A stretch of 64,000 nucleotides of DNA from a virus (taxonomy: Duplodnaviria; Caudoviricetes): IMG/VR virus record IMGVR_UViG_3300028410_000746. The stretch is one strand, 5' to 3'. Below are positions 26,106 to 55,259 of this stretch, piece by piece; the first letter of the stretch is position 1, and the number at the start of each line of letters is the position of its first letter. The notes below the pieces were generated by a model. The model had not been told where the DNA came from and did no database searches. It saw only the letters and a program-made list of their open reading frames with translations. Made by a program: the position numbers and the translations under genes.

Positions 26106-27584
26106 TCACCCGAAGGTAGTGAAGTTGAAGACGCGCGAGGTATCCTCGTCGTCGTAGCGAACCGTGAGCGTGTACGAGGGATACTCGTTGATGCCCATAC
26201 GCATGGTGTGCTCCCGACCCTTACGATCATCGAACGTAAAGCTCCGGCGAGAGCCTCGATCATAGAAGCTGCGGAAGTTGAGCACGCGGTCCACGTCCTT
26301 CTTGTAGAAGACACCTTCGCCGTAGGCCTCGTTGACCCAGTTGTAGAGGGCCTCGTCGGTCATATCTCCCGAGAGCAGCTTGGTATAGGCGTCGGGCGTC
26401 TTCTGGGCCCACACGACATCCAGCTCGCCAGGGTTGCGCTGAATCTCAACCTCACCGTCCTCAAAAGACGTAACCATGTAGTCCTTCATCGGATCGTTGA
26501 GCACAAGCTCCAAGACCGCCTCGGTGATGTCGGACGTAATCACATCACGGTTCGTGCTTACGACATGCTGAAGAGAGTCCAGCTCCACGCTCTTGGGACG
26601 GCTGAACCAGCCGAAAGAGGGATCACGACGACTCGGGCGGAAGGTCGCCCCGAAGCTGATACGCTGTCCCACGAGGTCCTGTCCGTAGCCGTCGCCTCGA
26701 CGTAGAATCTTGGCAGGCGCCGTACCCTCCACCTCAAAGGGGTTCCCCTCCAGGTCGCGGGCGCGCACGCGCATCTTGGTAGATGGACCATAATCGCCGC
26801 CGTAGTCCTCTCGCACCGACAGGATCTCTCCGCCCTTGATCACACCAGCTCCGTCCGGGACGAACCCCTTGGCATTGGTGGCCCCCTCGACCTCGAAGAA
26901 GCCGAACTCCGCATCACGCTTGCTGCGGATCACCTTCCCCTTGAACTTGACCTTGGTACCCCTGGCGGGGTCGTTGGTGTAGAGGTCCGCGAGGCTTGCG
27001 TCGATGTTGCCAAAGAGCTTGAACATCTGACCCTCCTTAACCACGCTCAAGAGCATGGCGGGGCCCTTCTGGTTGGTCTTGGTCGAAATGACCGTACCCA
27101 CCACCTCGTACACCCCCTCAACCACCTCACCCATTACGGGCGCGTCATCCGAAGCGATGTCAGGTGCGTTGAGGTCGGTCCGCTCGAACTTGAGCTTCCG
27201 AGGATTGGGGAGCTGGCCATCCGTGCGAAGCTTCGAGCTGGTCCAAGCCACCACGCCGGCCCGGTCGAGCAAGAAGTAGTAAACCTTCCCGTAGCGCTGC
27301 TGGACGATGGCGATGGCGCGCATGGACTTGCGGTTGTACCCCTTGATCTTGCGGGCCCAGTTCTCGGACTCCGTGGGGTACTGATTCTCCTTGAGCGCAT
27401 AATCCAACGCGGTCCGACCCTGAGCCGGGGAGTCGTAGAGACCCTCCCGATACTTGGCCGCCGTGAACATGGCCCGCATGAAATCAAACGCGATCTTGCT
27501 ACGCGTCGCCTGGACCGCCTTCAAGGTTGAGGAGAAGGCCGGGACGGCAGCGAGTCGGGTCAGAAGCATAGACAGAGAATTCAT
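26106..27584 (-). CDS. hypothetical protein, possible OB-like repeats
   Basis: 492-aa ORF; two beta-rich segments ending F.G.V..S.RD..FG.F / F.AT...S.RD.SFG.F. Confidence 0.65.
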   Translation of the reverse strand: MNSLSMLLTRLAAVPAFSSTLKAVQATRSKIAFDFMRAMFTAAKYREGLYDSPAQGRTALDYALKENQYPTESENWARKIKGYNRKSMRAIAIVQQRYGKVYYFLLDRAGVVAWTSSKLRTDGQLPNPRKLKFERTDLNAPDIASDDAPVMGEVVEGVYEVVGTVISTKTNQKGPAMLLSVVKEGQMFKLFGNIDASLADLYTNDPARGTKVKFKGKVIRSKRDAEFGFFEVEGATNAKGFVPDGAGVIKGGEILSVREDYGGDYGPSTKMRVRARDLEGNPFEVEGTAPAKILRRGDGYGQDLVGQRISFGATFRPSRRDPSFGWFSRPKSVELDSLQHVVSTNRDVITSDITEAVLELVLNDPMKDYMVTSFEDGEVEIQRNPGELDVVWAQKTPDAYTKLLSGDMTDEALYNWVNEAYGEGVFYKKDVDRVLNFRSFYDRGSRRSFTFDDRKGREHTMRMGINEYPSYTLTVRYDDEDTSRVFNFTTFG

Positions 27585-27605
27585 GGGGCAGCTCGTGTGT
27601 GGGTG

Positions 27606-28871
27606 TTAGGAATCTTGCCTCGCCTGCACGAGCAGTCCCTCGGCCACAGCCGTCATGGGGTTGCTCGCGCGACGAACCTCGCTGATCTCCAGCGGGAAAC
27701 GCTTGCGGTGCTTCTTGTCAAAGACAGACTCGAAGACCTCGATGAAGCCGTCGGGGAGGCTCGTACCTCCAGAGACGACGATCGGGATGGCCGTCAGCTC
27801 CGTGTCGGACTGCTCGGCCTTGAACTGCTTGGCGATGTGCTTGAGCGCGTAGTTAATCAGGGACTTGTAGTACACGACCAAAGCCTCCTGCTCGCGGCCC
27901 ACAGGGGCAGCCAAGTTGATGCCCTTCTCCTTGATCGTACACATGCGCGAGGCCGTCGTGCCGAGAGCCTGCGCCGACTGTGCGTCAATCCAGTCGCCGC
28001 CGCGCGCGAGCGAGAACTCCATGATCGGAAGGGTCTGGTAGGACAGGGCGATGTTGACCATGCCCGAGCCGAAGCTGATGCCGATACCCGAGAAGGTCTC
28101 CTTGGCACACTCAGCGTAGATGATGGCCATCGCCTCGTTGCCCGAGATCGCCGTGTACCCCAGCTCCTCCAGGATGCGCTCGAAAGCCGCCTCGTGGTAA
28201 ACCACGTCCCTCTCCGGAGCATCCACCGGGGACGCCGGGATCGAGTAGTAGCACACCTCGTCCTCGACCTGCGGCTTGCCCAGTACGCCCTCGATCATGA
28301 TGGAGAGCACCTCCAACGCATCATGCTCCGACGCCGAGATGAGGCCTTGCGCCAGCGGACGGCGCGCCTCACGCTTGAAGAGGTTGGCGAGCTGAAGCGC
28401 GTCATCACCCAGGATCAGGATGTGGTCCTCGTACTCCACGAAGGTCGTGCCTCCGAGCTGGAGCTTGGCCTTGGCGTCCAGGTCCAGGTCCAGGAACGCA
28501 TCGCGCGTTCGGCTGGTGACCACGCCCTCTTCGGACTGCACCGCGCTCACGATGTTCATGGTCCCGATGTCCAGACCCTTGCCAAAGAAGATCTTGGCAG
28601 AGGTGGGCGCAGAGGTGGGCGGGATGAGCGTGGTCTTTCTGTCTTCGGTCATGTCTGTACTCCCAAGTTTCTCGGGGGCCGGAGTGTCATCACCCGGCTC
28701 CGCTGTATGGTAGACCTGAGGCTCGGTCAAAAGCTCAAGGTCCCACTCACCCATGCGACGTCGCACAGTTGAGGAGCTGCACCCTAGCACAGCTTGGATC
28801 TCTCGTACAGTCATTCCTTGTTTGACGAGACGCGTCAAGCGTTGTTTGGTGATGTCCAGCTTTTTAGCCAT
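27606..28871 (-). CDS. actin-like ATPase (MreB/MamK/ParM superfamily) with N-terminal HTH extension
   Basis: Phosphate-1 GLDIGTMN, connect ISGNEAMAII, phosphate-2 GISFGSGMVN, adenosine VSGGTS, NPMTAVAEG; HTH GMTVREIQAVLGCSSSTVRRR. Confidence 0.9.
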   Translation of the reverse strand: MAKKLDITKQRLTRLVKQGMTVREIQAVLGCSSSTVRRRMGEWDLELLTEPQVYHTAEPGDDTPAPEKLGSTDMTEDRKTTLIPPTSAPTSAKIFFGKGLDIGTMNIVSAVQSEEGVVTSRTRDAFLDLDLDAKAKLQLGGTTFVEYEDHILILGDDALQLANLFKREARRPLAQGLISASEHDALEVLSIMIEGVLGKPQVEDEVCYYSIPASPVDAPERDVVYHEAAFERILEELGYTAISGNEAMAIIYAECAKETFSGIGISFGSGMVNIALSYQTLPIMEFSLARGGDWIDAQSAQALGTTASRMCTIKEKGINLAAPVGREQEALVVYYKSLINYALKHIAKQFKAEQSDTELTAIPIVVSGGTSLPDGFIEVFESVFDKKHRKRFPLEISEVRRASNPMTAVAEGLLVQARQDS

Positions 28872-28940
28872 GTCTGCGTCTCGAAGCTCGGTCTGAGTCT
28901 ACCGACCTCAAGGCATTAAAAGATCACCACGGGGGCGCGC

Positions 28941-29651
28941 TCAATCCTTCCGAGCTTTACGCAGCGCCGCAAGTGCGGCTGCCGCGTCTGCTACCCCCGA
29001 CGACGACCCCTCCTCCTGCTTGCTGTTCACGGTCCCGGAGAGCTTGGAGCCCGAAGACCGAATCTTGGACGGCAGGTAAATCGGTACCTCATCGTCGTCG
29101 TCGTCGTCGTCTTCGTAATCGTCTTTCGCCTTGGTGCGCTTCGGATCAACCACGTGACCGCTCGCCACCGGATTGACCGAGATGCCCTTCTCAAGAAGCT
29201 CCTTGAGTTGAGCCAGCATCTCCCCCTGAGAGACCAGAAGCTCTCGGGTCATCTGCTGGAGGTCGTCATTGCGTGTCTGGAGGTCCTCCTGGCGATTCTG
29301 AGCGCCTTGAGGTCCCTCACCCGACTCCGTAGTCGCGTGGGGAGTTGTAGCGGCGCTAACGGGAGAGGAAGAGACAGGACGCGCGGGCGGGCTCGCGGGC
29401 GGGCTCGCGCGCCTGTACGTACGCGTGGGCTTGGGCGCGACACGAGAAGACGCCCTCGGCTGGTGCTCAAGCGCGGTCTGAACGCGAACGCGCGTCACGT
29501 GACCCTGACGGTACGCGTCCTGGAGGTCGAGGCTTCTATGAGCCAGGACGCTACTCAACGGAATCTCCGTGTCGTACGGGACGGTAACGCCGAGGTCCTT
29601 GATCGTGTGACCCCCCACGACCTCTCCACGGATGATGATCTGCTGTAGCAT
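28941..29651 (-). CDS. hypothetical protein
   Basis: 236-aa ORF, Pro/Ser linker and acidic stretch. Confidence 0.65.
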   Translation of the reverse strand: MLQQIIIRGEVVGGHTIKDLGVTVPYDTEIPLSSVLAHRSLDLQDAYRQGHVTRVRVQTALEHQPRASSRVAPKPTRTYRRASPPASPPARPVSSSPVSAATTPHATTESGEGPQGAQNRQEDLQTRNDDLQQMTRELLVSQGEMLAQLKELLEKGISVNPVASGHVVDPKRTKAKDDYEDDDDDDDEVPIYLPSKIRSSGSKLSGTVNSKQEEGSSSGVADAAAALAALRKARKD

Positions 29652-29661
29652 GTGAGCCTCC

Positions 29662-30162
29662 TCAACGGTTGTACTTCTTACCTACCACGCCAAACCGAGA
29701 CGCCACACGTTGGCGAGTCATCTCCAGAGCTTGGGCCGATATGATCTTGAGCGCACGCTGAGCGCCGCGCTCAATGAAATTCTTACCTTCAAAGCCCGGA
29801 TGTTTCCAGGCTCCTGACCTCATAGAGGCCTGTGTCGCAGTTCGGAACACCACCTGTCCGTTGTCCGTGACGATCGGGATCGGCCGGCGCGCCTTGGTCA
29901 AGTGTGTCATCTGGTACGCCTTGACCCCGTTGTTCAGGTAACTCGCAGCGGGGTGTGAGGAACGGATGATGATCTGACCACCACGGACCTCCGACTCGAA
30001 CGACGACAAGAGGTCGCTTGGTACCGACTTGAAGGCGGTACGGCGGATCTCAGCCTTGACCTCCCGGAGGGCCGTGTCGGCGGCCTTCTCCAAGAAGCTC
30101 TTCGAGAGGGACGATGTATCGCGCAGTGGGGCCTCGGGCCTGGAGCGTTCGTTGTCGGGCAC
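29662..30162 (-). CDS. putative neck/tail-completion protein (HK97 gp10-like)
   Basis: Position; AWKHPGFEGKNFIERG resembles the gp10-like HPG...F motif. Confidence 0.5.
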   Translation of the reverse strand: MPDNERSRPEAPLRDTSSLSKSFLEKAADTALREVKAEIRRTAFKSVPSDLLSSFESEVRGGQIIIRSSHPAASYLNNGVKAYQMTHLTKARRPIPIVTDNGQVVFRTATQASMRSGAWKHPGFEGKNFIERGAQRALKIISAQALEMTRQRVASRFGVVGKKYNR

Positions 30163-30243
30163 GGGGAGCCTCCTTGACCGTGCCCACTACCCGTGAGTAC
30201 GCGGCCTGTATGCTTAGTAGGTGTCGGTACTCAGGAGACTCCA

Positions 30244-30840
30244 TCATCCCAGCTCCGGATACGGGCTCAGGCCCAGCCCTTCACGATGCGCTTGCACCGC
30301 ACGCAGCAACATCTTGGCGTTGGCTTTTCCCAGGGACACCTTGACCTCCTGAGTGCCTTCGCACGTCCCATCCGAGATGAAGTTCACCACAGGCACACCC
30401 CAGTCTCGAACCTTGTTGTAAGCACGCTCCGCATGCGACTCCAAAGTCTCCAGGATGATCACGTCATAATGGCGACCACGCAGACGCTCATCCCAGCTTC
30501 GATGCAGTACCGAGGAGAACGTTAGATTCTGCGTCTCGCTCCCCATGTACGTCGGGATGGCATAGATCGGCGTAGGAGCCACGTAAGCTACCCGAAAGCC
30601 CTCTTGAGACAGTTGCCGAGACGCGTAGCTGTAGCCCGCCCTTCGACCCAACGACACATGCAAGCGTCGTCCTCGGCCGCGCACGTACTCTACGTGGTCT
30701 GAGAAGACCGTCTCGCCCCGCGCGAAGGCTTCCAGGAGCAGCACGAGTCGATCGCCCTGGTTCGGGGTATTAAGCCGAAAACGCAACGTCGGCTCGTGGA
30801 TACCCTCCAACTCACCTATGACCCAACGCGGAATAAGCAC
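30244..30840 (-). CDS. hypothetical protein
   Basis: 198-aa ORF. Confidence 0.5.
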   Translation of the reverse strand: MLIPRWVIGELEGIHEPTLRFRLNTPNQGDRLVLLLEAFARGETVFSDHVEYVRGRGRRLHVSLGRRAGYSYASRQLSQEGFRVAYVAPTPIYAIPTYMGSETQNLTFSSVLHRSWDERLRGRHYDVIILETLESHAERAYNKVRDWGVPVVNFISDGTCEGTQEVKVSLGKANAKMLLRAVQAHREGLGLSPYPELG

Positions 30841-30848
30841 TACCTACC

Positions 30849-31145
30849 TCACTTATCGTCGACCAGATCCATGGATTTGGCCACGTCAATGACAATCCTG
30901 TTCAGAGCAGGGTACATCTTGTCGTCTTCCAAGTCGATCTTGCCGCCCAGCTCTTCTTTGAGTTCGGAGCGAACGCGCACGAAGAACAGCTCGGGCGCGT
31001 CATCTACGCCGAGCTGCTGAGTCGTCATCTCTCCAATCATCTTGTCGATGGACTCTTTGGGATCGAACGCGTCGTCGTCCGCAGCGTCGAGGAGGTTGGT
31101 GTATGCAGCCGCCACGCGGCGGGCCAGTCGGATTTGCTTCTTCAT
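30849..31145 (-). CDS. small acidic protein with N-terminal LARRVAAAY motif
   Basis: ORF with RBS; motif shared with head-region proteins. Confidence 0.6.
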   Translation of the reverse strand: MKKQIRLARRVAAAYTNLLDAADDDAFDPKESIDKMIGEMTTQQLGVDDAPELFFVRVRSELKEELGGKIDLEDDKMYPALNRIVIDVAKSMDLVDDK

Positions 31146-31168
31146 CAGTCTCTCAAGGTTGAGGTCAG

Positions 31169-32155: not shown

Positions 32156-32156
32156 A

Positions 32157-33515: not shown

Positions 33516-33582
33516 GCGCGGTGATCTCCAGGTGGGTTGGATCGAACACGACCACCGCGACTATAAAAGGATAACCACGCGC

Positions 33583-33972: not shown

Positions 33973-34053
33973 AATCCCCTCGCATTGCTGCTGGTTGCGG
34001 GTTGCTTCCGGAAGCTCAAGCTCCCTGGAACACCTACAGAGAGGATGAGTAGA

Positions 34054-34615: not shown

Positions 34616-35425
34616 TCAGACCGACTCGGCCTCGTAGCGGCCGTTGCCCATGTTGCGAATGACGTCTCGGCTGGTCTGGGGTATCTCGACCAGGATCGAA
34701 CGAACATAGTTGCTGCGGTTGTACTCATCGTCATAGTAGTAGTCGTCGTCAAACGAGCTACGCGCCTCCTTGTAGACGTCGACACGCACGACATCACCCG
34801 CCTCAACCCGACGGAGCACCTCTTCAAGGCCACCGCGACGAACCGAAGGTGCGCCCTTGAGCGCATCCCAGCCTCGGAAGGCCTCAGCCGCATGCGTGTA
34901 GTCCGCGCCGCGCAGCTTCTCCTTCTGGAGAACGTAGTACACGAACTTGGCTGCATGACTCGCACCCGCCATGCGTACAGACGCCTCGCGCCAGCCGTCT
35001 CGCGTCTTCTCGATCTTGCCCTTGCTCGTCATGGGTATTTCGACCGTAATGTTCTGCTTGAGATCACCACGCACCATCTCATCCTCATCCTCATCGTACT
35101 CACTGAAGTACACGAACACGTCCACCACCGTACCCGGAGAAGCCGAGGTGAGCGCCTCATCCAGGGGCTCAATGTCGGTGATGCCGTTCATAGACGACAT
35201 GTTACGCTTCCAGGAGTCCCAGTCCTTGTAGACGATGGCCTCGTGAAGGTACTTCTTGCCCGACGCGCGCTCCTTGCGTAGAGCTTGCCGAACGATCTTG
35301 GCTGCGTACGAAGCAGCAGCGGCAGTACGCGTAGACGCCAGGGAGGCGATCACAGGCTTGAGGTGAGGACGCAGCTCAGGCTTGGTTTTGCCGAGGCGAA
35401 TGAGACGGGCTTTGAGATCAGACAT
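34616..35425 (-). CDS. hypothetical protein with N-terminal LIRL..PELR motif and internal duplication
   Basis: MSDLKARLIRLGKTKPELRPHLKPVIASL; two related ~100-aa halves ending V.VDV....D......VEIP.TS. Confidence 0.75.
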   Translation of the reverse strand: MSDLKARLIRLGKTKPELRPHLKPVIASLASTRTAAAASYAAKIVRQALRKERASGKKYLHEAIVYKDWDSWKRNMSSMNGITDIEPLDEALTSASPGTVVDVFVYFSEYDEDEDEMVRGDLKQNITVEIPMTSKGKIEKTRDGWREASVRMAGASHAAKFVYYVLQKEKLRGADYTHAAEAFRGWDALKGAPSVRRGGLEEVLRRVEAGDVVRVDVYKEARSSFDDDYYYDDEYNRSNYVRSILVEIPQTSRDVIRNMGNGRYEAESV

Positions 35426-39285: not shown

Positions 39286-40449
39286 TCAGAAGTGCTCACG
39301 GAGGAAGTTGGAGAACGTCCACGCGACCTCTTCAAGATCGGACGGAAGGTCCTCCAGCATACGATAATGTGTACGGTCTTCGAGGCCTTCCACGAGGCTC
39401 TCAGCCGTGGAAGCGAGGTCCTCACTCATCTTGACAACCTTGGCCAAAGACGACTTGGAGAGGGCGGAGTAGGCTCCGCGACGGAGAAGGTCGAGCCCTC
39501 GCATGAGGTCCTTGACGCCATCGACATCACGCTCAAGCTTCTTGAGGTCCCGGCCATAAGCCTTCAAGATCCGGACCAAGGTGCCCTCGACGACATCCTC
39601 GTACGCGCCCTGAATGCGGGACTCCTTCTCAGCCTCTACCGATGCCGAGAAGTCGTTCTGCATCAAGGTCTGGATTCGATCGAAGGCGCGCTTGACCTCG
39701 GCAGTCTTGGCGACCGCCTTGAGAGCCTTGGAGGGGTCCGAGAACATGGGGCTGAACTCGCGCGGAGTGCCTCCATCACCGGAACACTCCATGTAGACCT
39801 CATAGGAGTACGTGCCCATCTTCTCCAGCATCTCCTCGACGAAGAGCGGAGCGGACGCGTCCATGTCAACGACGTCAGCCGGCTTGGGAGTCACAGGCAC
39901 GAGGTCCAGCTCAGGAGCAGCCTGATCACGAGGGTTGAGGAGAGCGTCTTCCAGGCCTCGCTGGTTCTGACGCAGGCTCTCAGCGCGATCACGCTGGGCC
40001 TGCTGATCCTGCTTCGTGACGAACGGATGCCCCTTGAGGTAATAATTGTCCCATGCCACCATGTCCGCATTGGCAGGATCGAGAGCCATCTCACGGAGCA
40101 CGAGCTGCACGCGGTTGGCGAAATCCTGGAAGGCCTGAAGCGTGCTCCGGCTCACGTCCCCCGTGAACCCCTTGCGGTACTCGTCCGGGAAGTTGTTCTG
40201 GAACTCCAGGTCGAGGAGACCTTCCACAAGCTGCCCACTGAGGCCGGGCCCCATATCCCCACGCACGTCTGCGCTGTACGCCACACGAAGCGCTCCGTAC
40301 GCGCTAGCGTGCAGCCTTCGACGCTGGGCCGAACGAGTAAGCACCTCCTGACGAGTCACCGTCAGGGAGGCGATCACCGGCTTGAGGTGTGCACGCAGCT
40401 TCGGAGTTGAGCTGCCAATGCGAATGAGACGTTGCTTTAGAGTGCGCAT
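39286..40449 (-). CDS. hypothetical helical protein with N-terminal LIRI..P.LR motif
   Basis: MRTLKQRLIRIGSSTPKLRAHLKPVIASL. Confidence 0.75.
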   Translation of the reverse strand: MRTLKQRLIRIGSSTPKLRAHLKPVIASLTVTRQEVLTRSAQRRRLHASAYGALRVAYSADVRGDMGPGLSGQLVEGLLDLEFQNNFPDEYRKGFTGDVSRSTLQAFQDFANRVQLVLREMALDPANADMVAWDNYYLKGHPFVTKQDQQAQRDRAESLRQNQRGLEDALLNPRDQAAPELDLVPVTPKPADVVDMDASAPLFVEEMLEKMGTYSYEVYMECSGDGGTPREFSPMFSDPSKALKAVAKTAEVKRAFDRIQTLMQNDFSASVEAEKESRIQGAYEDVVEGTLVRILKAYGRDLKKLERDVDGVKDLMRGLDLLRRGAYSALSKSSLAKVVKMSEDLASTAESLVEGLEDRTHYRMLEDLPSDLEEVAWTFSNFLREHF

Positions 40450-40461: not shown

Positions 40462-40701
40462 TTAGGCTGCGTGACAAAGACGTTTGAGTGTCCGGACTTC
40501 GTTGGTCAGCGTCAGTGCGCTGACCTGTGCTCGGCCCGAAAAGTAGTCGTTCTTTCGCTCCCGCATATCGCCCTGGTTCGCGAAAACGAAGTAGGTCTTG
40601 GACCCCTGACGTACCGCTTCCATGAACGGAATATCAATGGCCTTGAGGTACGCAGCGAAGTACAGATCGGAGGTTCGGTAATCAAGCAGGACTGACGACA
40701 T
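40462..40701 (-). CDS. DUF5659-like small protein
   Basis: YRTSDLYFAAYLKA motif. Confidence 0.7.
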   Translation of the reverse strand: MSSVLLDYRTSDLYFAAYLKAIDIPFMEAVRQGSKTYFVFANQGDMRERKNDYFSGRAQVSALTLTNEVRTLKRLCHAA

Positions 40702-40719: not shown

Positions 40720-41181
40720 TCAGATGTAGCGTACGGTCAACTTGGAGCCCACGTACTGACGCACGATGGCCTGAATCTCCTCATCGGACACGACCCCAGA
40801 CACGGGAGCGAATGCGAAGGACTCGTCCAGGAACACCTTACCATTGTAGGCCGACACCACCCCGGAGTGTATATCATCAGGAGAGACCCTACGCCCGGAA
40901 GCACGAGACAACGCCGTCAAGATGTTGGCCGCCACGCCTCGCAGCTCCCGGCCACGCACGTTCACGAGCTGGTAATCCACCTCCGCGCCAAAGTCATGAC
41001 GTATGAGCAATGAGACGCTATAGCCCCCATCACGTGCCGACAGACTACGAGAGAGCGTCAGGGCCGCCGTCGTCGATCCCTGAGCCTGCTTATGCAGGGA
41101 GGCGATCACAGGTTTGAGGTCCGCACGAAGTTCAGGCTTGGCGGTCCCCATACGAATCAGTTCGGCTTTGAGATCGGACAT
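40720..41181 (-). CDS. hypothetical protein with N-terminal LIRM..PELR motif
   Basis: MSDLKAELIRMGTAKPELRADLKPVIASL. Confidence 0.7.
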   Translation of the reverse strand: MSDLKAELIRMGTAKPELRADLKPVIASLHKQAQGSTTAALTLSRSLSARDGGYSVSLLIRHDFGAEVDYQLVNVRGRELRGVAANILTALSRASGRRVSPDDIHSGVVSAYNGKVFLDESFAFAPVSGVVSDEEIQAIVRQYVGSKLTVRYI

Positions 41182-46634: not shown

Positions 46635-47618
46635 TTATTCAGCAGCCAACATCGCGGCCGCTCTTGAGACCTTGGCTGCCGGGGTCTCTTCACCCAGCGC
46701 AACCAGAAGCTCCGCGACCTGCTCAAGCACCGCGACGAAGGCTTCGTGCGTCACCAGATCCTCCGCCAACCTGACGTCGAGGGCCACGGACAACTGGAAG
46801 AGCCGGGTGAGGGCGGGCATCATCTGGGGATACGGAACGTGGGCGCGCTTACGGGTATCCTGAGCCGCGAAGACCATCGCCTCGCGCACCAGCGTCCCCT
46901 CATCGTAGAAGTGCATGGAGTCCAGGTAGTTGAGCAGAACCGACATGTACCCCGTATGAAACAGCGAGAGCGCGCCAGCCGGGAACCCTCTCTTCTGAGC
47001 CACCATACGGCTCATCTGGACCACTTCACCCACCAACCGCATGTCCGAGCCAGAACACGCACGCTTGGCCATCCCAGCGGTAAGCGTACCCATGTCCGGA
47101 GCATGAGGCGTGAAGGGCCTCACGAGACGATTGCCTCCAAGGAAGTCACCGTCCAGGTACTCAATCCAGCCAAACGTCTTGGAGGCGTCCGACAGCATCG
47201 AATCCTCCCAGGACTCCTGCGTGAACTTCGAGTGGCTCATGCCGATCCCATTGGTGAATCCCGCGTTGACGTCAATGCGGATCACGCCGTCCACATCATG
47301 CGCCGAAGGCGCCACGGTAAAGGTCGCCCACAAGCGGGGGGCCATCGGCTCCGAGTTGGCGCGCAGTACGATGTAGCGCACCGTGACTGTGTAATGAGCC
47401 GAAGACGACTTCGAGACGTCAACCTCCTCGAAGTCGACCTTGCGACCCAGGGCTTGGTACAGGTAACGCTCATACTCCGCACGCAGTCCTCGGAGGGTAG
47501 AGCCAAGGCTATCGGCTCGTTGGGAGACCTTCTGAGCCTTGGCGCGCTCCTCAGGGCCCAAACCAAGCATGGAAGCCCGGCGCACCGTCTGGACAATCAG
47601 CTCTCTCGTAGACATCAC
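46635..47618 (-). CDS. hypothetical protein
   Basis: 327 aa; coupled to upstream gene. Confidence 0.65.
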   Translation of the reverse strand: MMSTRELIVQTVRRASMLGLGPEERAKAQKVSQRADSLGSTLRGLRAEYERYLYQALGRKVDFEEVDVSKSSSAHYTVTVRYIVLRANSEPMAPRLWATFTVAPSAHDVDGVIRIDVNAGFTNGIGMSHSKFTQESWEDSMLSDASKTFGWIEYLDGDFLGGNRLVRPFTPHAPDMGTLTAGMAKRACSGSDMRLVGEVVQMSRMVAQKRGFPAGALSLFHTGYMSVLLNYLDSMHFYDEGTLVREAMVFAAQDTRKRAHVPYPQMMPALTRLFQLSVALDVRLAEDLVTHEAFVAVLEQVAELLVALGEETPAAKVSRAAAMLAAE

Positions 47619-48445
47619 GCCGACACTCCCGCAACGCCCTTGAGACGCTGACCCAGCAAATAGAGGTGAGTCTCGTGCGTAGACGAGACAGCTCCCAAGA
47701 GATCCTCCATGCCCATCGACATACGATCTCCCAGAGCATCCCGAACCGCATTGATATGCTCGATCACGACCATCTCTGCGATAAAAGATCGCTCCGGGTA
47801 TCCAAGGCGAGCCTGCGACTCCAGGAAGGTGACAAAGCCTGCCACACGTTGAGCCTGATCAACCGAGTCAATCTCCAGGCCATACACGCCCATCAACTTC
47901 TCTGCGAGCGCGTCAATCTCAGGACCTACGGCCTCATACATACGCTCAAAGAGCAGGTGATCCTGATACGACGTGTCTCCCGATGAACCCCAATGCGCGT
48001 TTTGGTGAAGCTGTTGGACCGCCCGCACCAATGCGAGGAGGTCCAACAGCAATCGGTGAGGCTCCTGTTCTGAGACGTTCGCACGTCGGATGTTCTTGGC
48101 CGTGACGTACGCAGCCACCGCCCGATCAATGTCATTGCCCGGTGCCTGCGACAGCTCCTTGGACAGAGAAGCACTCACCCGCGAGGGGAGACCTCGGAAG
48201 GAATACGTCACACCGCTCGACGGAGCCATCGGCCCCTCGTAAGAAGTCACCTGACCTCTGGTCGTGTGCGACTCAACAGCACCTTCGGGCCCTCGAACCT
48301 CCACCACCGCATCAAACGTCGCGGTGAGGGCGTAGGAATGACGACGGTGCAGCTCTCCGAGGTACGTGTACTCAGCATTACGGACCGACACGTCCTGGAT
48401 CGTATACAGCGTGCCCAATTGAGAGCGGGAGATGAAGGTGCGCAT
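47615..48445 (-). CDS. protein with C-terminal Dps/ferritin-like domain
   Basis: LHQNAHW....D..YQDHLLFERMYE...EIDALAEK...HETHLYLL. Confidence 0.75.
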   Translation of the reverse strand: MRTFISRSQLGTLYTIQDVSVRNAEYTYLGELHRRHSYALTATFDAVVEVRGPEGAVESHTTRGQVTSYEGPMAPSSGVTYSFRGLPSRVSASLSKELSQAPGNDIDRAVAAYVTAKNIRRANVSEQEPHRLLLDLLALVRAVQQLHQNAHWGSSGDTSYQDHLLFERMYEAVGPEIDALAEKLMGVYGLEIDSVDQAQRVAGFVTFLESQARLGYPERSFIAEMVVIEHINAVRDALGDRMSMGMEDLLGAVSSTHETHLYLLGQRLKGVAGVSA

Positions 48446-48510
48446 GTGGTTCCTCGCGTAAAATGGTTCTGTACCCTAGAGATTATAAAGGCATCACCAG
48501 CTCCCACGGA

Positions 48511-48539
48511 TTTACGATTGTACCGTACTGTGGTATACA
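48511..48539 (+). promoter_or_regulatory. sigma70-type promoter of the inverted gene
   Basis: TTTACG-N17(ending TGTGG)-TATACA. Confidence 0.55.
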
Positions 48540-48569
48540 GACTCCGTACCCTCAAGAAAGGAGCTACCC

Positions 48570-49337: not shown

Positions 49338-49338
49338 G

Positions 49339-49647
49339 TCAGATCGACGTGAGGACGCTCTTGAGGCCTCGCATCTCACTGCTCAAGTTGGCGTACTCCT
49401 CATTGAGTGAGCGAATGCCCTGGTCACGGGCACGATCCGTCGTCGCACGTGCGATCGTGACCTGAGCACGGTAGATCGCACTGGCGATGTCCTTGAGTGC
49501 GTCAGGGATCAACTCCAGGCGCTCCATAGGGTCGCCGTAAGCGATACGCGTATCAGACGCCAGAGAGGCGATCACGGGCTTAAGATGGGGGCGCAGCTCC
49601 GGCTTGGCGTTGCCGAGACGGATAAGACGGGCTTTGAGATCAGACAT
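49339..49647 (-). CDS. small helical protein with N-terminal LIRL..PELR motif
   Basis: MSDLKARLIRLGNAKPELRPHLKPVIASL. Confidence 0.7.
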   Translation of the reverse strand: MSDLKARLIRLGNAKPELRPHLKPVIASLASDTRIAYGDPMERLELIPDALKDIASAIYRAQVTIARATTDRARDQGIRSLNEEYANLSSEMRGLKSVLTSI

Positions 49648-49684
49648 GAGTTGGGCTCCTGAAGTCGGGTTTGACGTACAAAGG

Positions 49685-49726
49685 AGAAGAGCCCCCTCCC
49701 CTCAATCGCGGGTAGGGGGCTCTTCT
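49685..49726 (-). terminator. terminator after major capsid gene
   Basis: AGAAGAGCCCCCT/AGGGGGCTCTTCT inverted repeat. Confidence 0.8.
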
Positions 49727-49763
49727 GTGCGATCAGTTCATGACGGTTAGGTCATGCCTGTGC

Positions 49764-50642
49764 TCAGCGGCGCACGACCAGACGGACAAGTCCGCGCGGG
49801 TTGTGGCAGCCAATGCCCAGGTTCTCGAAGATCGAGAAGCCGATCTGGCGGGCAGCGGGGTTATCCGCCGAGAGAACCGTCAGCTCAGTGCGAACGGGGA
49901 TGCGGCCGAACATCTCGGGCTCGGTGCAGAGGTACACGAAGCCAGCCGGGACGAGACGCGAGACGATGATCTGCGCGCCCCAGAGGGTGGACTGGAGACC
50001 CGTGTTCAGAAGGACAGCCTGCGACTCGATGTCGAGGATCTCGCGACCGAACTTACGGATGTCCGAGTAGTCCTTGGCGTTCATGTAGATGCGCGCCACG
50101 CGAAGGTCATGCTTCTCGATCTCGGAGAACGCGTCCGCGAGGACGGCCTGCGAGATGGGAGCCACGACCTGGAGGTCGGGGTTGACCGTACCGGGAACCG
50201 AATCGAACCCGTTCTGAGCCACAGCGTCGAGGATAGCGAAGACGCGCTCGTCCTCGGCAGCCTGGATCTGGCTCTTACCGAGCTGCTGGGCACGCTCGAT
50301 GAGGTCGAAGCGGCGCTCCTTGATCTGCGTGATCGGGATGGTCGGAAGCGACGCGATCTCGAACAGGGGGATGATCACACGACGAGGCTTCTGGACAGCC
50401 TGGATGTTCTCACCCTCCTCGCCTACGACGTACGCGGTGACATCCGGGTCCTTGTCGTAGATGGGAAGTGCGCCGTCGGGAAGCTGCTCGACGAGGAAGG
50501 TCTTTCGACCGACCGACGAGTAGTCGCGACGAAGGCGGAGGGGCTGAATCATCGAGTTGGCGAGACGCGCGCGTCCTGCCGCAGTCTTGATGAATCGGCC
50601 GATGAGCTGCGACTTGGCAGCGGGGCTGAGCTGGTTGGACAT
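49764..50642 (-). CDS. major capsid protein (HK97 fold, 292 aa)
   Basis: Order protease-scaffold-decoration-MCP-terminator; strong RBS and biased codons; DLIERA..L.K..I...ED..VF..L spine helix; LWGAQIIVS. Confidence 0.85.
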   Translation of the reverse strand: MSNQLSPAAKSQLIGRFIKTAAGRARLANSMIQPLRLRRDYSSVGRKTFLVEQLPDGALPIYDKDPDVTAYVVGEEGENIQAVQKPRRVIIPLFEIASLPTIPITQIKERRFDLIERAQQLGKSQIQAAEDERVFAILDAVAQNGFDSVPGTVNPDLQVVAPISQAVLADAFSEIEKHDLRVARIYMNAKDYSDIRKFGREILDIESQAVLLNTGLQSTLWGAQIIVSRLVPAGFVYLCTEPEMFGRIPVRTELTVLSADNPAARQIGFSIFENLGIGCHNPRGLVRLVVRR

Positions 50643-50701
50643 TTTTTTATGTCTCCTGTTTGGCGTTTCAGTGGGCAATCGGGCCCTGAACCTGCGAAGG
50701 C

Positions 50702-51367
50702 TCAGATGCGCTGGTCGATCACGAGTTCAGCGTGGACAGCATCGGGCACGATCGTGATCACGCCGATTCGAGTAGCTCCCGCGAGAACCTCGTCGCCGTT
50801 GGCGACCTCGTGAATGTCCGCATCCTCACTACCCGCAGCCGAAACCGCCGAGGTGAGGTACCCGTTGACACTCGCGTAAACCCACAGGCCGTTCTCGTAG
50901 ATCAGCGGATCGCCCGCCGCCCCCGAGGTGGTGCCGGCAAGGCCGGGCGCCAGAACAGCGGTCTCGTAGAGACGGAGACCCATGGTGCCCTGAGCCGACA
51001 CGTAGGTGCCCTTGCCCGAAGCCACCGCAGGGGTGTTCTCGTAGGCGCTGCCCGCTGCGTCGTTGACGAAGAGTCCAACGGGACGGATCGCACCAGCGGC
51101 CGCCGCTGCGCCCGTGGGGCCGCCAACGAAGCCGTTACCGGCTGCCGGACGCGTGAACGCTATCGAACCGCCGAGGACGCCGCGCTTGGGCGCGGGGGGA
51201 AGAGTGGTCGAAACCGTACCCGCCGCCGAAACGATGGGGGGGTTCTGCTGCTGGAACGCATCCAAGGTCAGCTCGGCCGCAAACGTGTTGCGGATACCGA
51301 CGTAAAGAATGCGAAGGGCGGAAGACGACTCGGTGAAGTCGCCGCTTGCCTGTCCGGGGAGTGCCAT
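50702..51367 (-). CDS. capsid decoration/cement protein
   Basis: Directly upstream of MCP; Ala/Gly-rich; PVGLFVNDA...SGKGT...YET pattern. Confidence 0.7.
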   Translation of the reverse strand: MALPGQASGDFTESSSALRILYVGIRNTFAAELTLDAFQQQNPPIVSAAGTVSTTLPPAPKRGVLGGSIAFTRPAAGNGFVGGPTGAAAAAGAIRPVGLFVNDAAGSAYENTPAVASGKGTYVSAQGTMGLRLYETAVLAPGLAGTTSGAAGDPLIYENGLWVYASVNGYLTSAVSAAGSEDADIHEVANGDEVLAGATRIGVITIVPDAVHAELVIDQRI

Positions 51368-51450
51368 GATCTTTCTCCTATCGAGAAAAGTGGGTTAGTT
51401 GCTACACTTACGCTATATATGTGAAGTCGGTTACGTACTTCCGGCCGATC

Positions 51451-52869
<1,419 letters not shown>

Positions 52870-53028
52870 TGATGCCTCCTGCGCAGGGGGTTCTTCGGTT
52901 TCGTAAATCCGGTAGCTGACCCCTTGCACAGAGGCAGCTTGCAAACACCGGTGGTACAAGTAGATTACTTAAAAATTTGTTGACTTTTCTCGAAGACCTG
53001 AGATAAACAGGCCTTTAAAGAGGGGTAG

Positions 53029-54552
53029 TCAATTAAGAAAACGAGAGTGGGACAGAGCAGCGGCAGCCTCTGGTCGAGTCGGAACCCTTCCGTGCTGCTT
53101 GGTGAAGGTCTTGAGGTACTCCATATTGGAGCCGTATCGGCAAATACCACCAACCTTGATGAGCGTGGCGTAGAAGTCCATCGGAAGCATCTCACGATCC
53201 GAGCCTTCACGATCAGCAAGGATCAGGGCCCCCACGATGTCCGTGTTGGCGAAGCGAGGCTTGAGGGTCTCGTAGTGCTCGGGCTTGTCCATCGTATAGA
53301 GCAGCGCGAAGATTCGGCGGCGACGGTTGATGTCCGACAGCTCTCGTGCGTAGCGACGAGAGAAGATCGCATACGCCGTACGCGCGATCGAGGAGTGCTG
53401 GATGGAGTCGTTAGGAGCCATCTCCCCCTCAGGCATGTCCTTGGTCTCGGGAGCGTCGCGAAGGTCATCACGCAGTTCGCGCATGGCCTTGTCTTTGACC
53501 TTCTCCTTGAACTGCTCTACCGCCTCGTCGACCGGGTTCTTGGGAGCCTCTTCCTCCTCACCGCCTTCCTCATCCTCATCGAAGCCGAACGCCAGCTTGA
53601 GCTGCGAGTTGACCTCCTCCCTGGCAATACGTGCCGAGAGAGCTGCGGTCTTGCGGAACATGTCCGTCCACTCCGCCTGGATACCAGCAGGAACCGTATA
53701 AGCGTGCTGAATGCGAGCCTCAAGGTCCGTGGTCTCATACCGAGAAGGAGTATGCGTCGTAGGACCTCCGGGAAGCACCGACCTCAACACGGCGCCCTTG
53801 AACGCGGGATTGCCCACCCACGAGCCCTCGATGAAGCTCACCGAGTCTGGATCAGTGTGGTGACCACAAAGCTCCGCCACGACGTGAATCGCTCCATCGG
53901 GACCGACGAACTTGTTGCCCTTCTCATACTTGACGTGACGACACAGCTCCGCGTCATCCTTGGCGCGGTTGCCGCACTTGGTGCACGTCGAATAGGCGAT
54001 GGTGCAGCCCATGGACAGCGTGTTCAGCTCACCGCTCTCAATGCGTGCGATGAGATCGCGGTGCTTGCGGTCCGTCGCCACCAGGATGTCTACGTAAACC
54101 GTATCACCCAGATCACGCGCCACTGCGTCAATGATCTTGCCCTTGGACAGCTCCGGGATCTGGATATGCTCGACGTAGTTCTCGGCTCCCACGAACGTCT
54201 GATACGTCGCCATGAGGAGCTTACGCTCCCAGGCGTCGCCGTTGGCGTTGATGTACTTGGAGCACCCAGGAGTGATCAGATAGTCCGAGTACGGACGGTT
54301 GATGCTCTCACCATCATCGTTCTGGACGCTGGCTCCCGTCTTGACGTTAGGAGCCTCATCCACGTCTACCGATGCGATGATCGTGCAGTGCGTCAGGAGG
54401 TACTTGTCGGGGCTAAACTTGCCCAGAAGGTCCGACGCCGTACGGCTGCGATGCGCGCCCGCAGTCACAGCGTTGGCACGCGTCACGTTCCACTGGTCCA
54501 CGCCAATGATTGGATGCTGTACCACAGCGTTTGCAATACGAATCATGGCCAT
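53029..54552 (-). CDS. prohead (capsid maturation) protease
   Basis: Position; NANGD...EH...GKIIDA...IESGELNTLSMGC...CTKCG..C.H...EGSWVGNPAF, phage serine-protease-like layout with Zn knuckle. Confidence 0.75.
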   Translation of the reverse strand: MAMIRIANAVVQHPIIGVDQWNVTRANAVTAGAHRSRTASDLLGKFSPDKYLLTHCTIIASVDVDEAPNVKTGASVQNDDGESINRPYSDYLITPGCSKYINANGDAWERKLLMATYQTFVGAENYVEHIQIPELSKGKIIDAVARDLGDTVYVDILVATDRKHRDLIARIESGELNTLSMGCTIAYSTCTKCGNRAKDDAELCRHVKYEKGNKFVGPDGAIHVVAELCGHHTDPDSVSFIEGSWVGNPAFKGAVLRSVLPGGPTTHTPSRYETTDLEARIQHAYTVPAGIQAEWTDMFRKTAALSARIAREEVNSQLKLAFGFDEDEEGGEEEEAPKNPVDEAVEQFKEKVKDKAMRELRDDLRDAPETKDMPEGEMAPNDSIQHSSIARTAYAIFSRRYARELSDINRRRRIFALLYTMDKPEHYETLKPRFANTDIVGALILADREGSDREMLPMDFYATLIKVGGICRYGSNMEYLKTFTKQHGRVPTRPEAAAALSHSRFLN

Positions 54553-54555
54553 GGG

Positions 54556-54849
54556 TCACTCCGGGGGGGCTACGTGCGTTAGCAGGGGAAGAAGATGGGG
54601 ACGAAGTTCAGGACGCTCAAACGCCAACTCTACGAGATCCTCGAAGAGCGTAGACGGAGCCTCCGTACGGCTCGGCGCCTGACTCAACAGATTCAACAGC
54701 CTCAACCCCGCACCATGCTGAGCAGAAGAAGGAGAGCCCATGGACGCCTGGAGGCCACGGCCAAAGTAGGCACGCACCGCGTCCGCGAGGGCCCCATCCT
54801 GTCCACCCCGTTCCCGGAGAGCCTCCATGATCGCGTCTTGACTGGTCAT
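54556..54849 (-). CDS. small protein with C-terminal LVELA..RPELRPHLLPLL motif
   Basis: ATGA overlap with upstream ORF. Confidence 0.6.
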   Translation of the reverse strand: MTSQDAIMEALRERGGQDGALADAVRAYFGRGLQASMGSPSSAQHGAGLRLLNLLSQAPSRTEAPSTLFEDLVELAFERPELRPHLLPLLTHVAPPE

Positions 54850-55259
54850 CGTACGTGATCCGAAAGCTTCTGGTTGATGCGCCCGAACAGGTCGTCGAGA
54901 GACTCGTGCTGTCCGGTCTCCCATTTGTGGAACTGAGCATCCTGGAAGCTCGTACCCACGTGAAGCATGGTCTCGATGTCGTAGCCGTCGCCTTTGTGAA
55001 CGATGTCAAACTTGACCCGCCACTGGATTTGGGAGAGCTGCCCCTCCAGGTAACCCGGCTCACGCTTGGTGATCGAAGTCGAGTAGGTACAAGACGTGGC
55101 GAAAGCCTCCGTCAGCTCCGCCAGAAAGTGATTGCGCACGAAGTCGAAGATGGACACGTCCAACGTCGACAACCCCGCTCGTTTGAGCACAGGACCCAAC
55201 GCGTCCCGGAGACCGGGGCGCGCCAAGGCGAGTCCAATGAGTTGTTCATGCAGCGCCAT
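54846..55259 (-). CDS. small protein with N-terminal LIGLA..RPGLR motif
   Basis: MALHEQLIGLALARPGLRDALGPVL. Confidence 0.65.
   Translation of the reverse strand: MALHEQLIGLALARPGLRDALGPVLKRAGLSTLDVSIFDFVRNHFLAELTEAFATSCTYSTSITKREPGYLEGQLSQIQWRVKFDIVHKGDGYDIETMLHVGTSFQDAQFHKWETGQHESLDDLFGRINQKLSDHVR

What the first reader, a model, noticed from the sequence alone, without database searches (positions are those of the whole stretch)
26106..55259. A portable ~25-aa motif (LxxxLIRLxxxxPELRxxLxPV) is grafted onto 6-7 unrelated proteins
N-termini at 35425 (MSDLKARLIRLGKTKPELRPHLKPVIASL), 40449, 41181, 49647 (near-identical to the first) and 55259 (LHEQLIGLALARPGLRDALGPVL); C-terminus of 54556-54849 (LFEDLVELAFERPELRPHLLPLL); divergent copy at 27584 (LSMLLTRLAAVPAFSSTLKAV). 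The four closest copies are also similar at DNA level, while the attached domains share nothing obvious. All lie in the morphogenesis region. Inference: a helix-turn-helix tag that routes diverse cargo into the prohead (analogous to the T4 capsid-targeting sequence or encapsulin cargo-loading peptides), spread by domain shuffling. It could be an engineerable packaging signal.
Basis: partly seen in the sequence, partly recalled or inferred. Interest (0 to 1): 0.78.

Follow-up and report, generated by a model that had tools for sequence, protein, structure and literature searches.

The report
Portable peptide tag in huge phages
A 23-28-residue helix-kink-helix peptide is attached to dozens of otherwise unrelated proteins in a clade of ~400-kb lake-water phages; it most likely docks them to a shared partner, perhaps for packaging into the capsid, but no partner was shown here.

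Summary
Four near-identical N-terminal copies (window 35425, 40449, 41181, 49647), one C-terminal copy (54562-54648) and one divergent N-terminal copy (55259) are confirmed. The 27584 copy is not.

The same 127.7-kb contig holds three more copies outside the window. A complete 437-kb relative has 17, and 13 of them lie in the 40 kb between the tail-sheath and terminase genes (p about 5e-11).

A profile of the tag finds 4,567 protein clusters among 1.84 billion representatives. Many proteins carry 2-7 copies, at the N-terminus, the C-terminus or between modules. All seven long contigs checked share one major capsid protein type (74-92% identical).

A DNA pattern for the tag core matched nothing in 596 Gb of prokaryote genomes and 24 sites in IMG/VR. 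The open literature library holds none of six tag strings.

Selection acts on the peptide, not on the DNA, and the tag is better conserved than its cargo. Cargo is mostly unrecognisable, soluble and highly charged. Rare recognisable domains are enzyme-like or nucleic-acid-related.

Routing into the prohead is the best reading (about 0.42) but rests on circumstantial evidence only. No universal protease site follows the tag. A multivalent docking or self-association module is a serious rival.

The parts
34616..35425 (-). Tagged protein A (269 aa); N-terminal tag at 35339-35425
   Evidence: HMM E 3e-21; translation; no Pfam or PHROG hit
39286..40449 (-). Tagged protein B (387 aa); N-terminal tag at 40363-40449
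   Evidence: HMM E 5e-20; no family hit; no usable ESM Atlas neighbour
40720..41181 (-). Tagged protein C (153 aa); N-terminal tag at 41095-41181
   Evidence: HMM E 3e-21. The real start is the ATG at 41181, not the upstream GTG of the longest ORF
49339..49647 (-). Tagged protein D (102 aa), directly downstream of the major capsid gene; tag at 49561-49647
   Evidence: HMM E 4e-22. The ortholog in the 92%-MCP relative L084 keeps the tag, while its cargo is only 34% identical
54846..55259 (-). Protein E (137 aa) with a divergent tag-like N-terminus (about 55182-55259)
   Evidence: Weak HMM hit, E 0.5. This N-terminus is conserved in L084, whose cargo is 84% identical. Its stop overlaps the start of F
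54556..54849 (-). Protein F (97 aa from the ATG at 54849; 122 aa if from 54924) with a C-terminal tag at 54562-54648; ends 3 nt before the protease gene
   Evidence: HMM E 0.007. The L084 ortholog (94 aa) keeps a C-terminal tag. Weak, sub-threshold LRV_2 hit on the tag
26106..27584 (-).
   Evidence: No HMM hit at E<=100. Only PHROGs of unknown function match, in the middle of the protein
53029..54552 (-). Prohead protease (507 aa) with a C-terminal extension of about 240 aa
   Evidence: phrog_18299, head maturation protease, E 4e-14, residues 104-255. Long form (470-519 aa) in all clade members checked, against 287 aa in Tunturi_5
51451..52959 (-). Very acidic, repeat-rich protein; scaffolding protein by position and composition (inferred)
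   Evidence: Translation. Syntenic acidic protein between protease and capsid gene in relatives
49764..50642 (-). Major capsid protein (HK97 fold, 292 aa)
   Evidence: phrog_2522 E 2e-50. Also PF05065 and 2,020 homologs. It is the most conserved protein between this contig and G001, at 76%
58656..60608 (-). Portal protein
   Evidence: phrog_16240 E 1e-27
61231..63216 (-). Large terminase subunit (upper edge of the block that holds the tagged genes)
   Evidence: phrog_2 E 2e-27
19156..23718 (-). Tail sheath (1520 aa; lower edge of the block)
   Evidence: phrog_2839 tail sheath E 2e-29

Best explanation
The tag is a self-contained docking peptide of 23-28 residues. Its clade consensus is LRSxLIRLAHxNPELRxxLLPLL; the N-terminal copies in this phage end in LKPVIASL instead. 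It is joined to its cargo by a poorly conserved linker.

I propose that it binds a conserved, phage-encoded component of the assembling head. The major capsid protein or the scaffold/protease core are the candidates. Binding would load a large and fast-changing set of soluble accessory proteins into the prohead, so that they travel with the DNA and enter the next host.

Shown here:
- The tag is portable and under selection as a peptide.
- It is predicted to form two short helices.
- It is restricted to one clade of huge phages that share one capsid protein type.
- In this subclade the tagged genes cluster in the head-to-sheath block.

Inferred, not shown:
- That the tag binds a head component.
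- That tagged proteins are in virions.
- That they are ejected into the host.
For: 1. Portability. Nine copies sit on nine mutually unrelated proteins in this contig. LR745208.1 has 11, and five half-genome contigs have 6-11 each. A profile of the tag finds 4,567 cluster representatives at E<=1e-3.

2. Peptide-level selection. Similarity starts at the ATG and ends with the tag. Synonymous changes dominate between the closest copies. Against L084, the tag differs far less (by eye) than its cargo, which is only 34-37% identical for D and F.

3. Layout typical of a targeting peptide. Copies lie at the N-terminus, at the C-terminus or between modules. C-terminal copies end within a few residues of LLPLL(K). 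A variable linker follows the tag.

4. Phage-specific. A DNA pattern for the tag core matched nothing in 596 Gb of prokaryote genomes and 24 sites in IMG/VR. The tag was not found in Tunturi_5 or phage G, whose capsid proteins are 47% and 39% identical.

5. Link to one capsid type. All seven long contigs checked carry the same capsid protein at 74-92% identity. It is by far the most conserved protein (76%; the next are 56% and 51%). This fits a conserved receptor for a conserved tag.

6. Gene position. In the complete 437-kb genome G006, 13 of 17 tags lie in the 40 kb between sheath and terminase (9% of the genome; binomial p 5e-11). In this contig it is 7 of 9 (p 0.006). D abuts the capsid gene. 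E and F overlap start-to-stop, and F ends 3 nt before the protease gene.

7. Cargo properties.
- It is soluble: 10 of 224 have a hydrophobic stretch.
- It is very charged: K 12%, D+E 16%.
- It turns over quickly: none of the nine cargos has a homolog in 676 kb of related phage DNA.
- It rarely matches a known family.
- Recognisable domains include GNAT, RelA/SpoT, a 2H phosphoesterase, WGR, a ParB-like domain and pentapeptide repeats.
Against: - No virion proteomics, expression data or cultured member exists for this clade. In the phage genome collection only the metagenomic LR745208.1 carries the tag.
- In the main clade the tagged genes are scattered. G001 has them at 24, 72, 94, 152, 169, 202-217 kb, and LR745208.1 across 15-433 kb. 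Clustering there is marginal (p 0.05, with the block chosen after the fact).
- No universal protease site follows the tag. Glu at the position that would give L-K-E|A occurs in only 26% of N-terminal copies and in none of this phage's.
- Proteins with 2-7 copies separated by long charged linkers look as much like multivalent scaffolds as like cargo.
- Similarity between the tag and helices in the scaffold or the protease C-terminus is not significant (hhalign probability 0.7-1.7%).
Confidence: 0.42

Rival explanations
1. The tag is a general docking or self-association module that does not point to the capsid interior. Tags bind each other or a non-virion phage hub. Proteins with several tags and long charged linkers then act as multivalent cross-linkers. 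Together they gather many accessory proteins into one intracellular assembly, such as a viral factory, a condensate or a filament-associated body.
For: In the two top-scoring samples, 110 of 120 and 211 of 224 proteins carry 2-5 copies; these samples are biased towards multi-copy proteins because score rises with copy number. Up to 7 matched stretches occur per protein. Small proteins of 100-160 aa carry a tag at each end. Tandem double tags exist, and their AlphaFold2 model is a four-helix unit with pTM 0.51. Linkers are rich in K, E and D. In the main clade the tagged genes are dispersed.
Against: In the complete genome G006 the tagged genes cluster strongly in the head-to-sheath block. The model of a protein with a tag at each end has pTM 0.30, so no confident tag-tag packing is seen there. 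No hub has been identified. This rival is compatible with a version of the main explanation in which the assembly is the prohead core.
Confidence: 0.25
2. The tag is a short motif that engages a host factor, for example a protease or adaptor (making it a degron that limits effector lifetime), a chaperone, or a replication or transcription hub.
For: Terminal position with a flexible linker is typical of degrons and of host-binding motifs. Cargo looks like host-directed accessory proteins. The tag carries conserved arginines and a hydrophobic face.
Against: A 23-residue unit with near-invariant L, I, P, R, L and P across thousands of proteins is long for such a motif. The tag tracks one phage capsid lineage and was not found in relatives. 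That points to a phage-encoded partner rather than a host one. The DNA pattern for the tag core matched no prokaryote genome. Internal and tandem copies are hard to explain as degrons.
Confidence: 0.13
3. The tag is mainly a recognition propeptide (exosite ligand) for the long prohead protease. It brings substrates to the enzyme's extra C-terminal region, and the tag is then removed.
For: Every clade member checked has a protease with a C-terminal extension of about 200-240 aa that Tunturi_5 lacks, and Tunturi_5 gave no tag match. F, which carries a tag, ends 3 nt before the protease gene. The commonest residues after the N-terminal tag are K, E and A, which resembles a T4-type L-x-E|A site.
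Against: Glu at that position occurs in only 26% of N-terminal, 18% of internal and 5% of C-terminal copies, and in none of this phage's N-terminal tags. C-terminal tags end the protein, so nothing lies downstream to release. The protease extension is poorly conserved (37-43% identity over the whole protein to the more distant clade members, 69% to the close relative L084), whereas the tag is highly conserved.
Confidence: 0.1
4. The tag is only an orphan structural repeat (LRV/HEAT-like helix pair) that caps or stabilises many folds. It has spread by recombination and has no common targeting role.
For: Weak LRV_2 hits fall on the tag (E 0.0075 and 0.011). Some tagged proteins carry true LRV repeats right after the tag. 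Tandem arrays of tags exist.
Against: The LRV scores (16-17 bits) are far below the 27-bit cut-off. Tags are separated from cargo by non-conserved, low-confidence linkers. They occur at either end of unrelated, often disordered proteins. A conserved cap on unrelated folds would not explain the strict clade restriction.
Confidence: 0.05

Closest known systems
T4 capsid targeting sequence (CTS) of internal proteins IPI-III, Alt, gp67 and gp68 (Mullaney & Black 1996; cited from my own knowledge)
   Same: A short N-terminal peptide shared by otherwise unrelated proteins of a large myovirus that has a scaffold core and a prohead protease. The T4 CTS carries foreign proteins into the head. The genes are partly scattered in the genome.
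   Different: The T4 CTS is about 10 residues and is followed by an L/I-x-E cleavage site. Here the unit is 23-28 residues and forms a helix-kink-helix. It also occurs C-terminally, internally and in multiple copies. It lacks a conserved cleavage site. Packaging is not demonstrated.
Encapsulin cargo-loading (targeting) peptides
   Same: A short conserved terminal peptide with a flexible linker on unrelated cargo, loaded into an HK97-fold shell. Tagged genes often lie next to the shell gene, as D does here.
   Different: Encapsulin peptides are short extended motifs that bind a pocket of the shell protein. Encapsulins have no portal, terminase or tail. This is a tailed phage with all three.
Bacterial microcompartment encapsulation peptides (cited from my own knowledge)
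   Same: An amphipathic helix of about 18 residues at the N-terminus, the C-terminus or between domains, set off by a poorly conserved linker and grafted onto unrelated enzymes. The first helix of the tag (LxxxLIRLx) has the same hydrophobic pattern.
   Different: There are no BMC shell genes in this contig or in the complete relative G006. The tag has a conserved second, proline-punctuated helix. No sequence relationship was tested, or could be.
Capsid-binding tails of head-assembly proteins: the P22 scaffolding protein C-terminal helix-turn-helix, the HK97 protease C-terminal targeting tail, and the C-terminal 25 residues of the herpesvirus scaffold (cited from my own knowledge)
   Same: A small, basic helical element that binds the inner face of an HK97-fold coat protein. 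It is sufficient to carry foreign cargo into procapsids.
   Different: Those elements sit on one or two dedicated assembly proteins. Here the element is on 17 or more proteins per genome. The tag's similarity to this phage's own scaffold and protease helices is not significant.
Leucine-rich repeat variant (LRV; Pfam PF01816 and PF25591)
   Same: A helix-turn-helix unit of about 24 residues with an 'xxNP-E-L/V-R-xx-L/V' turn. Weak profile hits fall exactly on the tag.
   Different: Scores are far below the family threshold. LRV units work as tandem solenoids, whereas most tags are single copies at protein ends.

Membership tests
T4-type capsid targeting sequence | A short peptide at the extreme N-terminus shared by unrelated phage proteins | tested here: met
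   Six of the nine copies in this contig, and 184 of 486 copies in the metagenomic sample, start within 6 residues of Met1. However, 302 of those 486 are internal or C-terminal
T4-type capsid targeting sequence | The tag is followed by a prohead-protease site (L/I-x-E|) that removes it | tested here: not met
   Glu at the matching column occurs in 26% of N-terminal copies and in 0 of this phage's six
T4-type capsid targeting sequence | Tagged proteins are incorporated into the prohead core and are present in virions | not testable with these tools
   No cultured member and no proteome. Gene clustering in the head-to-sheath block is only circumstantial
Encapsulin cargo-loading peptide | The shell is an encapsulin: an HK97-fold protein with no portal, terminase or tail | tested here: not met
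   Portal, large terminase and tail sheath are present
Bacterial microcompartment encapsulation peptide | An amphipathic helix at a terminus or between domains, followed by a non-conserved linker | tested here: met
   AlphaFold2 predicts helices at residues 2-14 and 16-30 with a low-confidence linker. Positions are given
Bacterial microcompartment encapsulation peptide | BMC shell proteins (PF00936) are encoded by the same element | tested here: not met
   No match in G000 or in the complete relative G006; the control genomes did match
LRV repeat (PF01816 / PF25591) | Profile score above the Pfam gathering threshold | tested here: not met
   16.7 and 16.2 bits against a 27-bit cut-off. The strong LRV hits come from cargo repeats in P0284 and P0303
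Coat-binding helix-turn-helix of scaffold or protease (P22, HK97, herpesvirus type) | Direct binding to the inner surface of the major capsid protein | not testable with these tools
   The single structure-based attempt gave no verdict (see Tried and rejected). It needs capsomer-level modelling or a binding assay

The most novel reading that the evidence does not exclude
The tag is the address label of a programmable protein-delivery system in one clade of huge phages. Multi-tag, highly charged proteins and single-tag cargos co-assemble through the tag into an inner-body-like core inside the prohead. Seventeen or more fast-evolving effectors, including candidate anti-defence enzymes, are thereby packaged and injected with the DNA. 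Any protein could then be loaded by adding about 25 residues.
Probability: 0.17. Interest if true: 0.85.

Novelty: new variant of a known kind. Interest (0 to 1): 0.62.

Why it matters
Huge phages encode hundreds of proteins with no known function, and how they deliver or organise them is largely unknown. A single tag of about 25 residues marks roughly 3% of the genes of an abundant clade. That clade has 2,020 capsid-protein homologs in metagenomes.

The tag therefore defines a ready-made list of functionally linked 'dark' proteins, and a simple handle for experiments such as pull-downs and tag-GFP loading. If it is a packaging signal, it would be a natural cargo-loading peptide for very large HK97-type capsids. 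It would then also point to the injected effector set, including possible counter-defence enzymes. If instead it is a multivalent assembly motif, it would reveal a new organising principle in infected cells.

Either way the motif appears to be undescribed. The open literature library contains none of six tag strings, and no Pfam or PHROG model covers the tag.

Tried and rejected
1. Complex prediction of the capsid protein (alignment A6) with the 45-residue tag region (A5). The result was 'no answer' with score 0.00 and the controls were not run. I do not use it as evidence either way.
2. Homology between the tag and the protease C-terminal helix (…RTMIRLASLL… in the main clade) or the scaffold helices (…QCVRIAS…, …TILRLAE…). 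hhalign probabilities were 1.65% and 0.73%, which is not significant.
3. A regex for the helix core hit only the scaffold (twice) and the protease N-terminus in this contig's 39,000 residues. The regex was designed after I had seen those sequences. In G001 only 1 of 7 non-tag hits is in the protease. I keep this as a weak lead only.
4. A conserved L-x-E cleavage site after the tag: rejected.
5. The 27584 copy: rejected.
6. Family assignment of the six tagged proteins in the window by Pfam and PHROGs: none. ESM Atlas for protein B: nothing usable. Pfam on ten tagged proteins of G001: nothing.
7. Search for the tag in cultured relatives: no match in Tunturi_5 or phage G. In the INPHARED phage collection only LR745208.1 matched. 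Megablast of the region found nothing.
8. Foldseek of the double-tag model against the PDB: no match at E<=0.001.
9. tblastn of a ParB-like cargo domain against cultured phages, looking for an annotated virion homolog: uninformative.
10. A conserved promoter or leader cassette upstream of the tag: rejected, because the upstream DNA does not align.
I replaced them with a degenerate DNA pattern.


Full report
**What is in the window**

Genes run almost entirely on the minus strand. The window is part of a single 127.7-kb virus contig with 60% G+C. CheckV rates the contig 29% complete.

PHROG searches identify these genes:
- large terminase, 61231-63216
- portal, 58656-60608
- a 507-aa prohead protease, 53029-54552
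- the major capsid protein, 49764-50642
- a 1520-aa tail sheath, 19156-23718

Between the protease and capsid genes lie an extremely acidic, repeat-rich protein (51451-52959) and a 221-aa protein. By position and composition I take the acidic one to be the scaffold.

The capsid protein is 77% identical to that of the uncultured 485-kb phage LR745208.1. It is 47% identical to Tunturiibacter phage Tunturi_5 and 39% to Bacillus phage G. The contig is therefore a fragment of a huge phage. The window's own proteins also appear on a contig of 373,477 bp.

**Checking the observation**

Translation at the stated coordinates reproduces the stated peptides. An HMM built from the four closest copies recovers them at E 4e-22 to 5e-20 in a six-frame scan. 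It also recovers the C-terminal copy in the ORF just upstream of the protease (E 0.007) and, weakly, the N-terminus at 55259 (E 0.5). Nothing is found at 27584.

The whole contig adds three copies:
- an N-terminal copy at contig 124871
- an N-terminal copy at contig 99329, about 150 nt beyond the window's end
- a C-terminal copy at contig 7724-7810

The weak 55259 copy is conserved in the ortholog of a relative whose capsid protein is 92% identical (L084). I accept it as a divergent member.

With the tag removed, the nine cargo parts show no similarity to each other. None matches Pfam or PHROGs apart from a sub-threshold LRV_2 hit on the tag itself.

**The peptide, not the DNA, is conserved**

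Aligned with 100 nt of upstream sequence, the six N-terminal copies become similar exactly at the ATG and diverge right after the tag. There is no shared promoter or leader. Copies A and D differ at 10 synonymous and only 2 non-synonymous codons.

Against L084, the D and F cargos are only 34% and 37% identical, whereas by eye the tags differ far less. The tag is thus more constrained than what it is attached to.

**How big the family is**

LR745208.1 has 11 copies, nearly all starting at Met1, spread over 15-433 kb. Five IMG/VR contigs of 200-290 kb, rated 45-66% complete, have 6-11 each. The complete 437-kb genome G006 has 17.

A word-indexed profile search scored 1,581 proteins at E<=0.01. 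An exhaustive HMMER search of 1.84 billion cluster representatives gave 4,567 at E<=1e-3 and 760 at E<=1e-10. The highest scores come from proteins with 2-7 copies.

The clade consensus is M-x-x-LRSxLIRLAHxNPELRxxLLPLLK. Internal and C-terminal copies are usually preceded by K-x-A-S. C-terminal copies end within a few residues of LLPLL(K). The functional unit is therefore about 23 residues.

Common layouts are:
- an N-terminal copy only
- N-terminal plus C-terminal copies, including small proteins of 100-160 aa with a tag at each end
- tandem double tags
- long lysine- and glutamate-rich proteins with tags between modules

This phage's N-terminal copies are a subtype (…LIRLGxxKPELRxxLKPVIASL). 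Its two C-terminal copies are of the LLPLL type. L084 has both types as well.

**Where it occurs**

All seven long contigs examined carry the same capsid protein at 74-92% identity and the long (470-519 aa) protease. Two of them were chosen by their capsid protein rather than by the tag.

No tag match was found in Tunturi_5 or phage G. In the INPHARED phage collection only LR745208.1 matched. A degenerate DNA pattern for IRLAHxNPELR has no match in 596 Gb of prokaryote species genomes. It has 24 matches on 20 stretches of IMG/VR. Six tag strings are absent from the open literature library.

**Structure**

AlphaFold2 models the tags of a two-ended protein as helix-kink-helix (residues 2-14 and 16-30, then 78-90 and 92-102). 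pLDDT is 74-83 in the tags, the middle is disordered and pTM is 0.30. A tandem double tag gives four helices with mean pLDDT 72 and pTM 0.51. It has no PDB look-alike.

**What the cargo is**

Cargo is mostly unrecognisable. In 223 top-scoring tagged proteins, Pfam finds only scattered domains:
- WGR
- RelA/SpoT
- GNAT
- a 2H phosphoesterase
- DUF2958
- a C39-like peptidase
- pentapeptide repeats
- LRV/HEAT repeats as cargo
- zinc ribbons

PHROGs finds one unknown family in 15 of 119 proteins and a ParB-like family in 2.

Tagged proteins are soluble: 10 of 224 have a hydrophobic stretch. They are very charged and almost free of cysteine. None of this contig's nine cargos has a homolog in 676 kb of related phage DNA, which includes all of G001. 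Even in L084 the gene next to D is a different tagged gene. This is a fast-turnover accessory set.

**Gene position**

In G006 the sheath gene is at 201.7-206.2 kb and the terminase gene at 242.9-244.9 kb. Thirteen of the 17 tags lie between 216.7 and 246.1 kb, which is 9% of the genome (binomial p 5e-11). In this contig 7 of 9 lie in the equivalent block (p 0.006).

D abuts the capsid gene. E's stop overlaps F's start, and F ends 3 nt before the protease gene. The same arrangement is seen in L084. In G001 and LR745208.1 the genes are more scattered (p 0.05 at best).

**Interpretation**

The anatomy is that of a docking or targeting peptide:
- a short, autonomous helical unit
- at either end of a protein or between modules
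- set off by a variable linker
- more conserved than its cargo
- confined to one phage lineage, and not found in prokaryote genomes with the DNA pattern used

Its partner should be phage-encoded and as conserved as the tag. The capsid protein is the outlier in conservation (76%, against 56% or less for everything else compared with G001). Together with the clustering in the head-to-sheath block and the head-module positions of D, E and F, this makes prohead loading the best single explanation (0.42).

The evidence is circumstantial. There is no conserved protease site. Similarity to scaffold or protease helices is not significant. The one complex prediction gave no verdict.

The abundance of multi-tag, linker-rich proteins and the compact double-tag model keep a multivalent docking or self-association reading alive (0.25). 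That reading could also be the way a prohead core is built. Less likely are a host-factor motif or degron (0.13), a protease-recognition propeptide (0.10) and a mere structural repeat (0.05).

**Comparison with known systems**

The tag works most like three known systems: the T4 capsid targeting sequence, encapsulin cargo-loading peptides and microcompartment encapsulation peptides. It is not a member of any of them.
- The T4-type cleavage site is missing.
- The shell belongs to a tailed phage with portal and terminase.
- No BMC shell genes are present.

The LRV resemblance stays below threshold. I rate it a new variant of a known kind (terminal targeting or docking peptides). It appears undescribed and is unusually widespread.

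Noticed in passing
window 27606-28871 (-): A 421-aa protein with an N-terminal helix-turn-helix (HTH_23) fused to a full-length Volactin (actin-like) domain, E 5e-78. It is the second most conserved protein between this contig and G001 (56%). A phage actin homolog with a DNA-binding head suggests a partition or positioning system.
   Followed up: partly
window 51451-52959 (-): A putative scaffold with long poly-Asp/Glu runs alternating with repeated short helices (…LVARSVAAALAQLGIS…). The TTG start of the longest ORF is probably wrong, because an ATG lies about 30 codons in.
   Followed up: partly
window 54552-55259 (-): E, F and the protease form a tight operon. E's stop overlaps F's ATG, and F's stop is 3 nt before the protease start. 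This fits translational coupling. The same layout occurs in L084.
   Followed up: partly
window 53029-54552 (-); L065 (G003): The clade's prohead protease has a C-terminal extension of about 200-240 aa that is absent from Tunturi_5's 287-aa enzyme. In G003 the protease match is split into two pieces about 1.3 kb apart inside one 947-aa open frame, which suggests an intein-like insertion.
   Followed up: no
window 47615-48445 (-): A 276-aa protein with weak Dps-like/DUF5856 hits (phrog_3636 E 1e-5; PF19174 below cut-off) lies three genes downstream of the capsid gene. L085 has a Ferritin-family gene in a similar position. It carries no tag.
   Followed up: no
window 40462-40701 (-): A small DUF5659 protein (79 aa, E 2e-5) sits between tagged genes C and B. 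The same neighbourhood is conserved in L084.
   Followed up: no
metagenomic tagged proteins (e.g. P0243, P0248, P0299, P0013, P0016, P0033): Several other short modules recur right after the tag or between tags in otherwise unrelated proteins. By eye these include GCEKLPEGxMRDNC, SYKDYVERKRKEG…PL…D.WE, ALKKYLKDHPGADKSKHTV, MPKGWTDxSRKK and EFPPDSIG…DEPYMKGHFTQ. These proteins look like mosaics of short linear modules joined by charged linkers.
   Followed up: no
window 34616-35425 (protein A); contig 7718-8242 (protein J, locus L001): By eye, both cargos contain an internal tandem duplication (two similar halves). BLAST self-comparison did not report it at the settings used.
   Followed up: no
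whole contig G000: IMG/VR labels the record 'provirus' and 29% complete. Yet the tag's DNA pattern has no match in 596 Gb of prokaryote genomes, and the complete relative G006 has direct terminal repeats. The provirus label is probably wrong.
   Followed up: partly
window 6100-7674 (-): A 524-aa AAA+ protein with clamp-loader-like PHROG hits (E 4e-8 to 5e-9). It marks the start of a non-structural region below the sheath gene.
   Followed up: no
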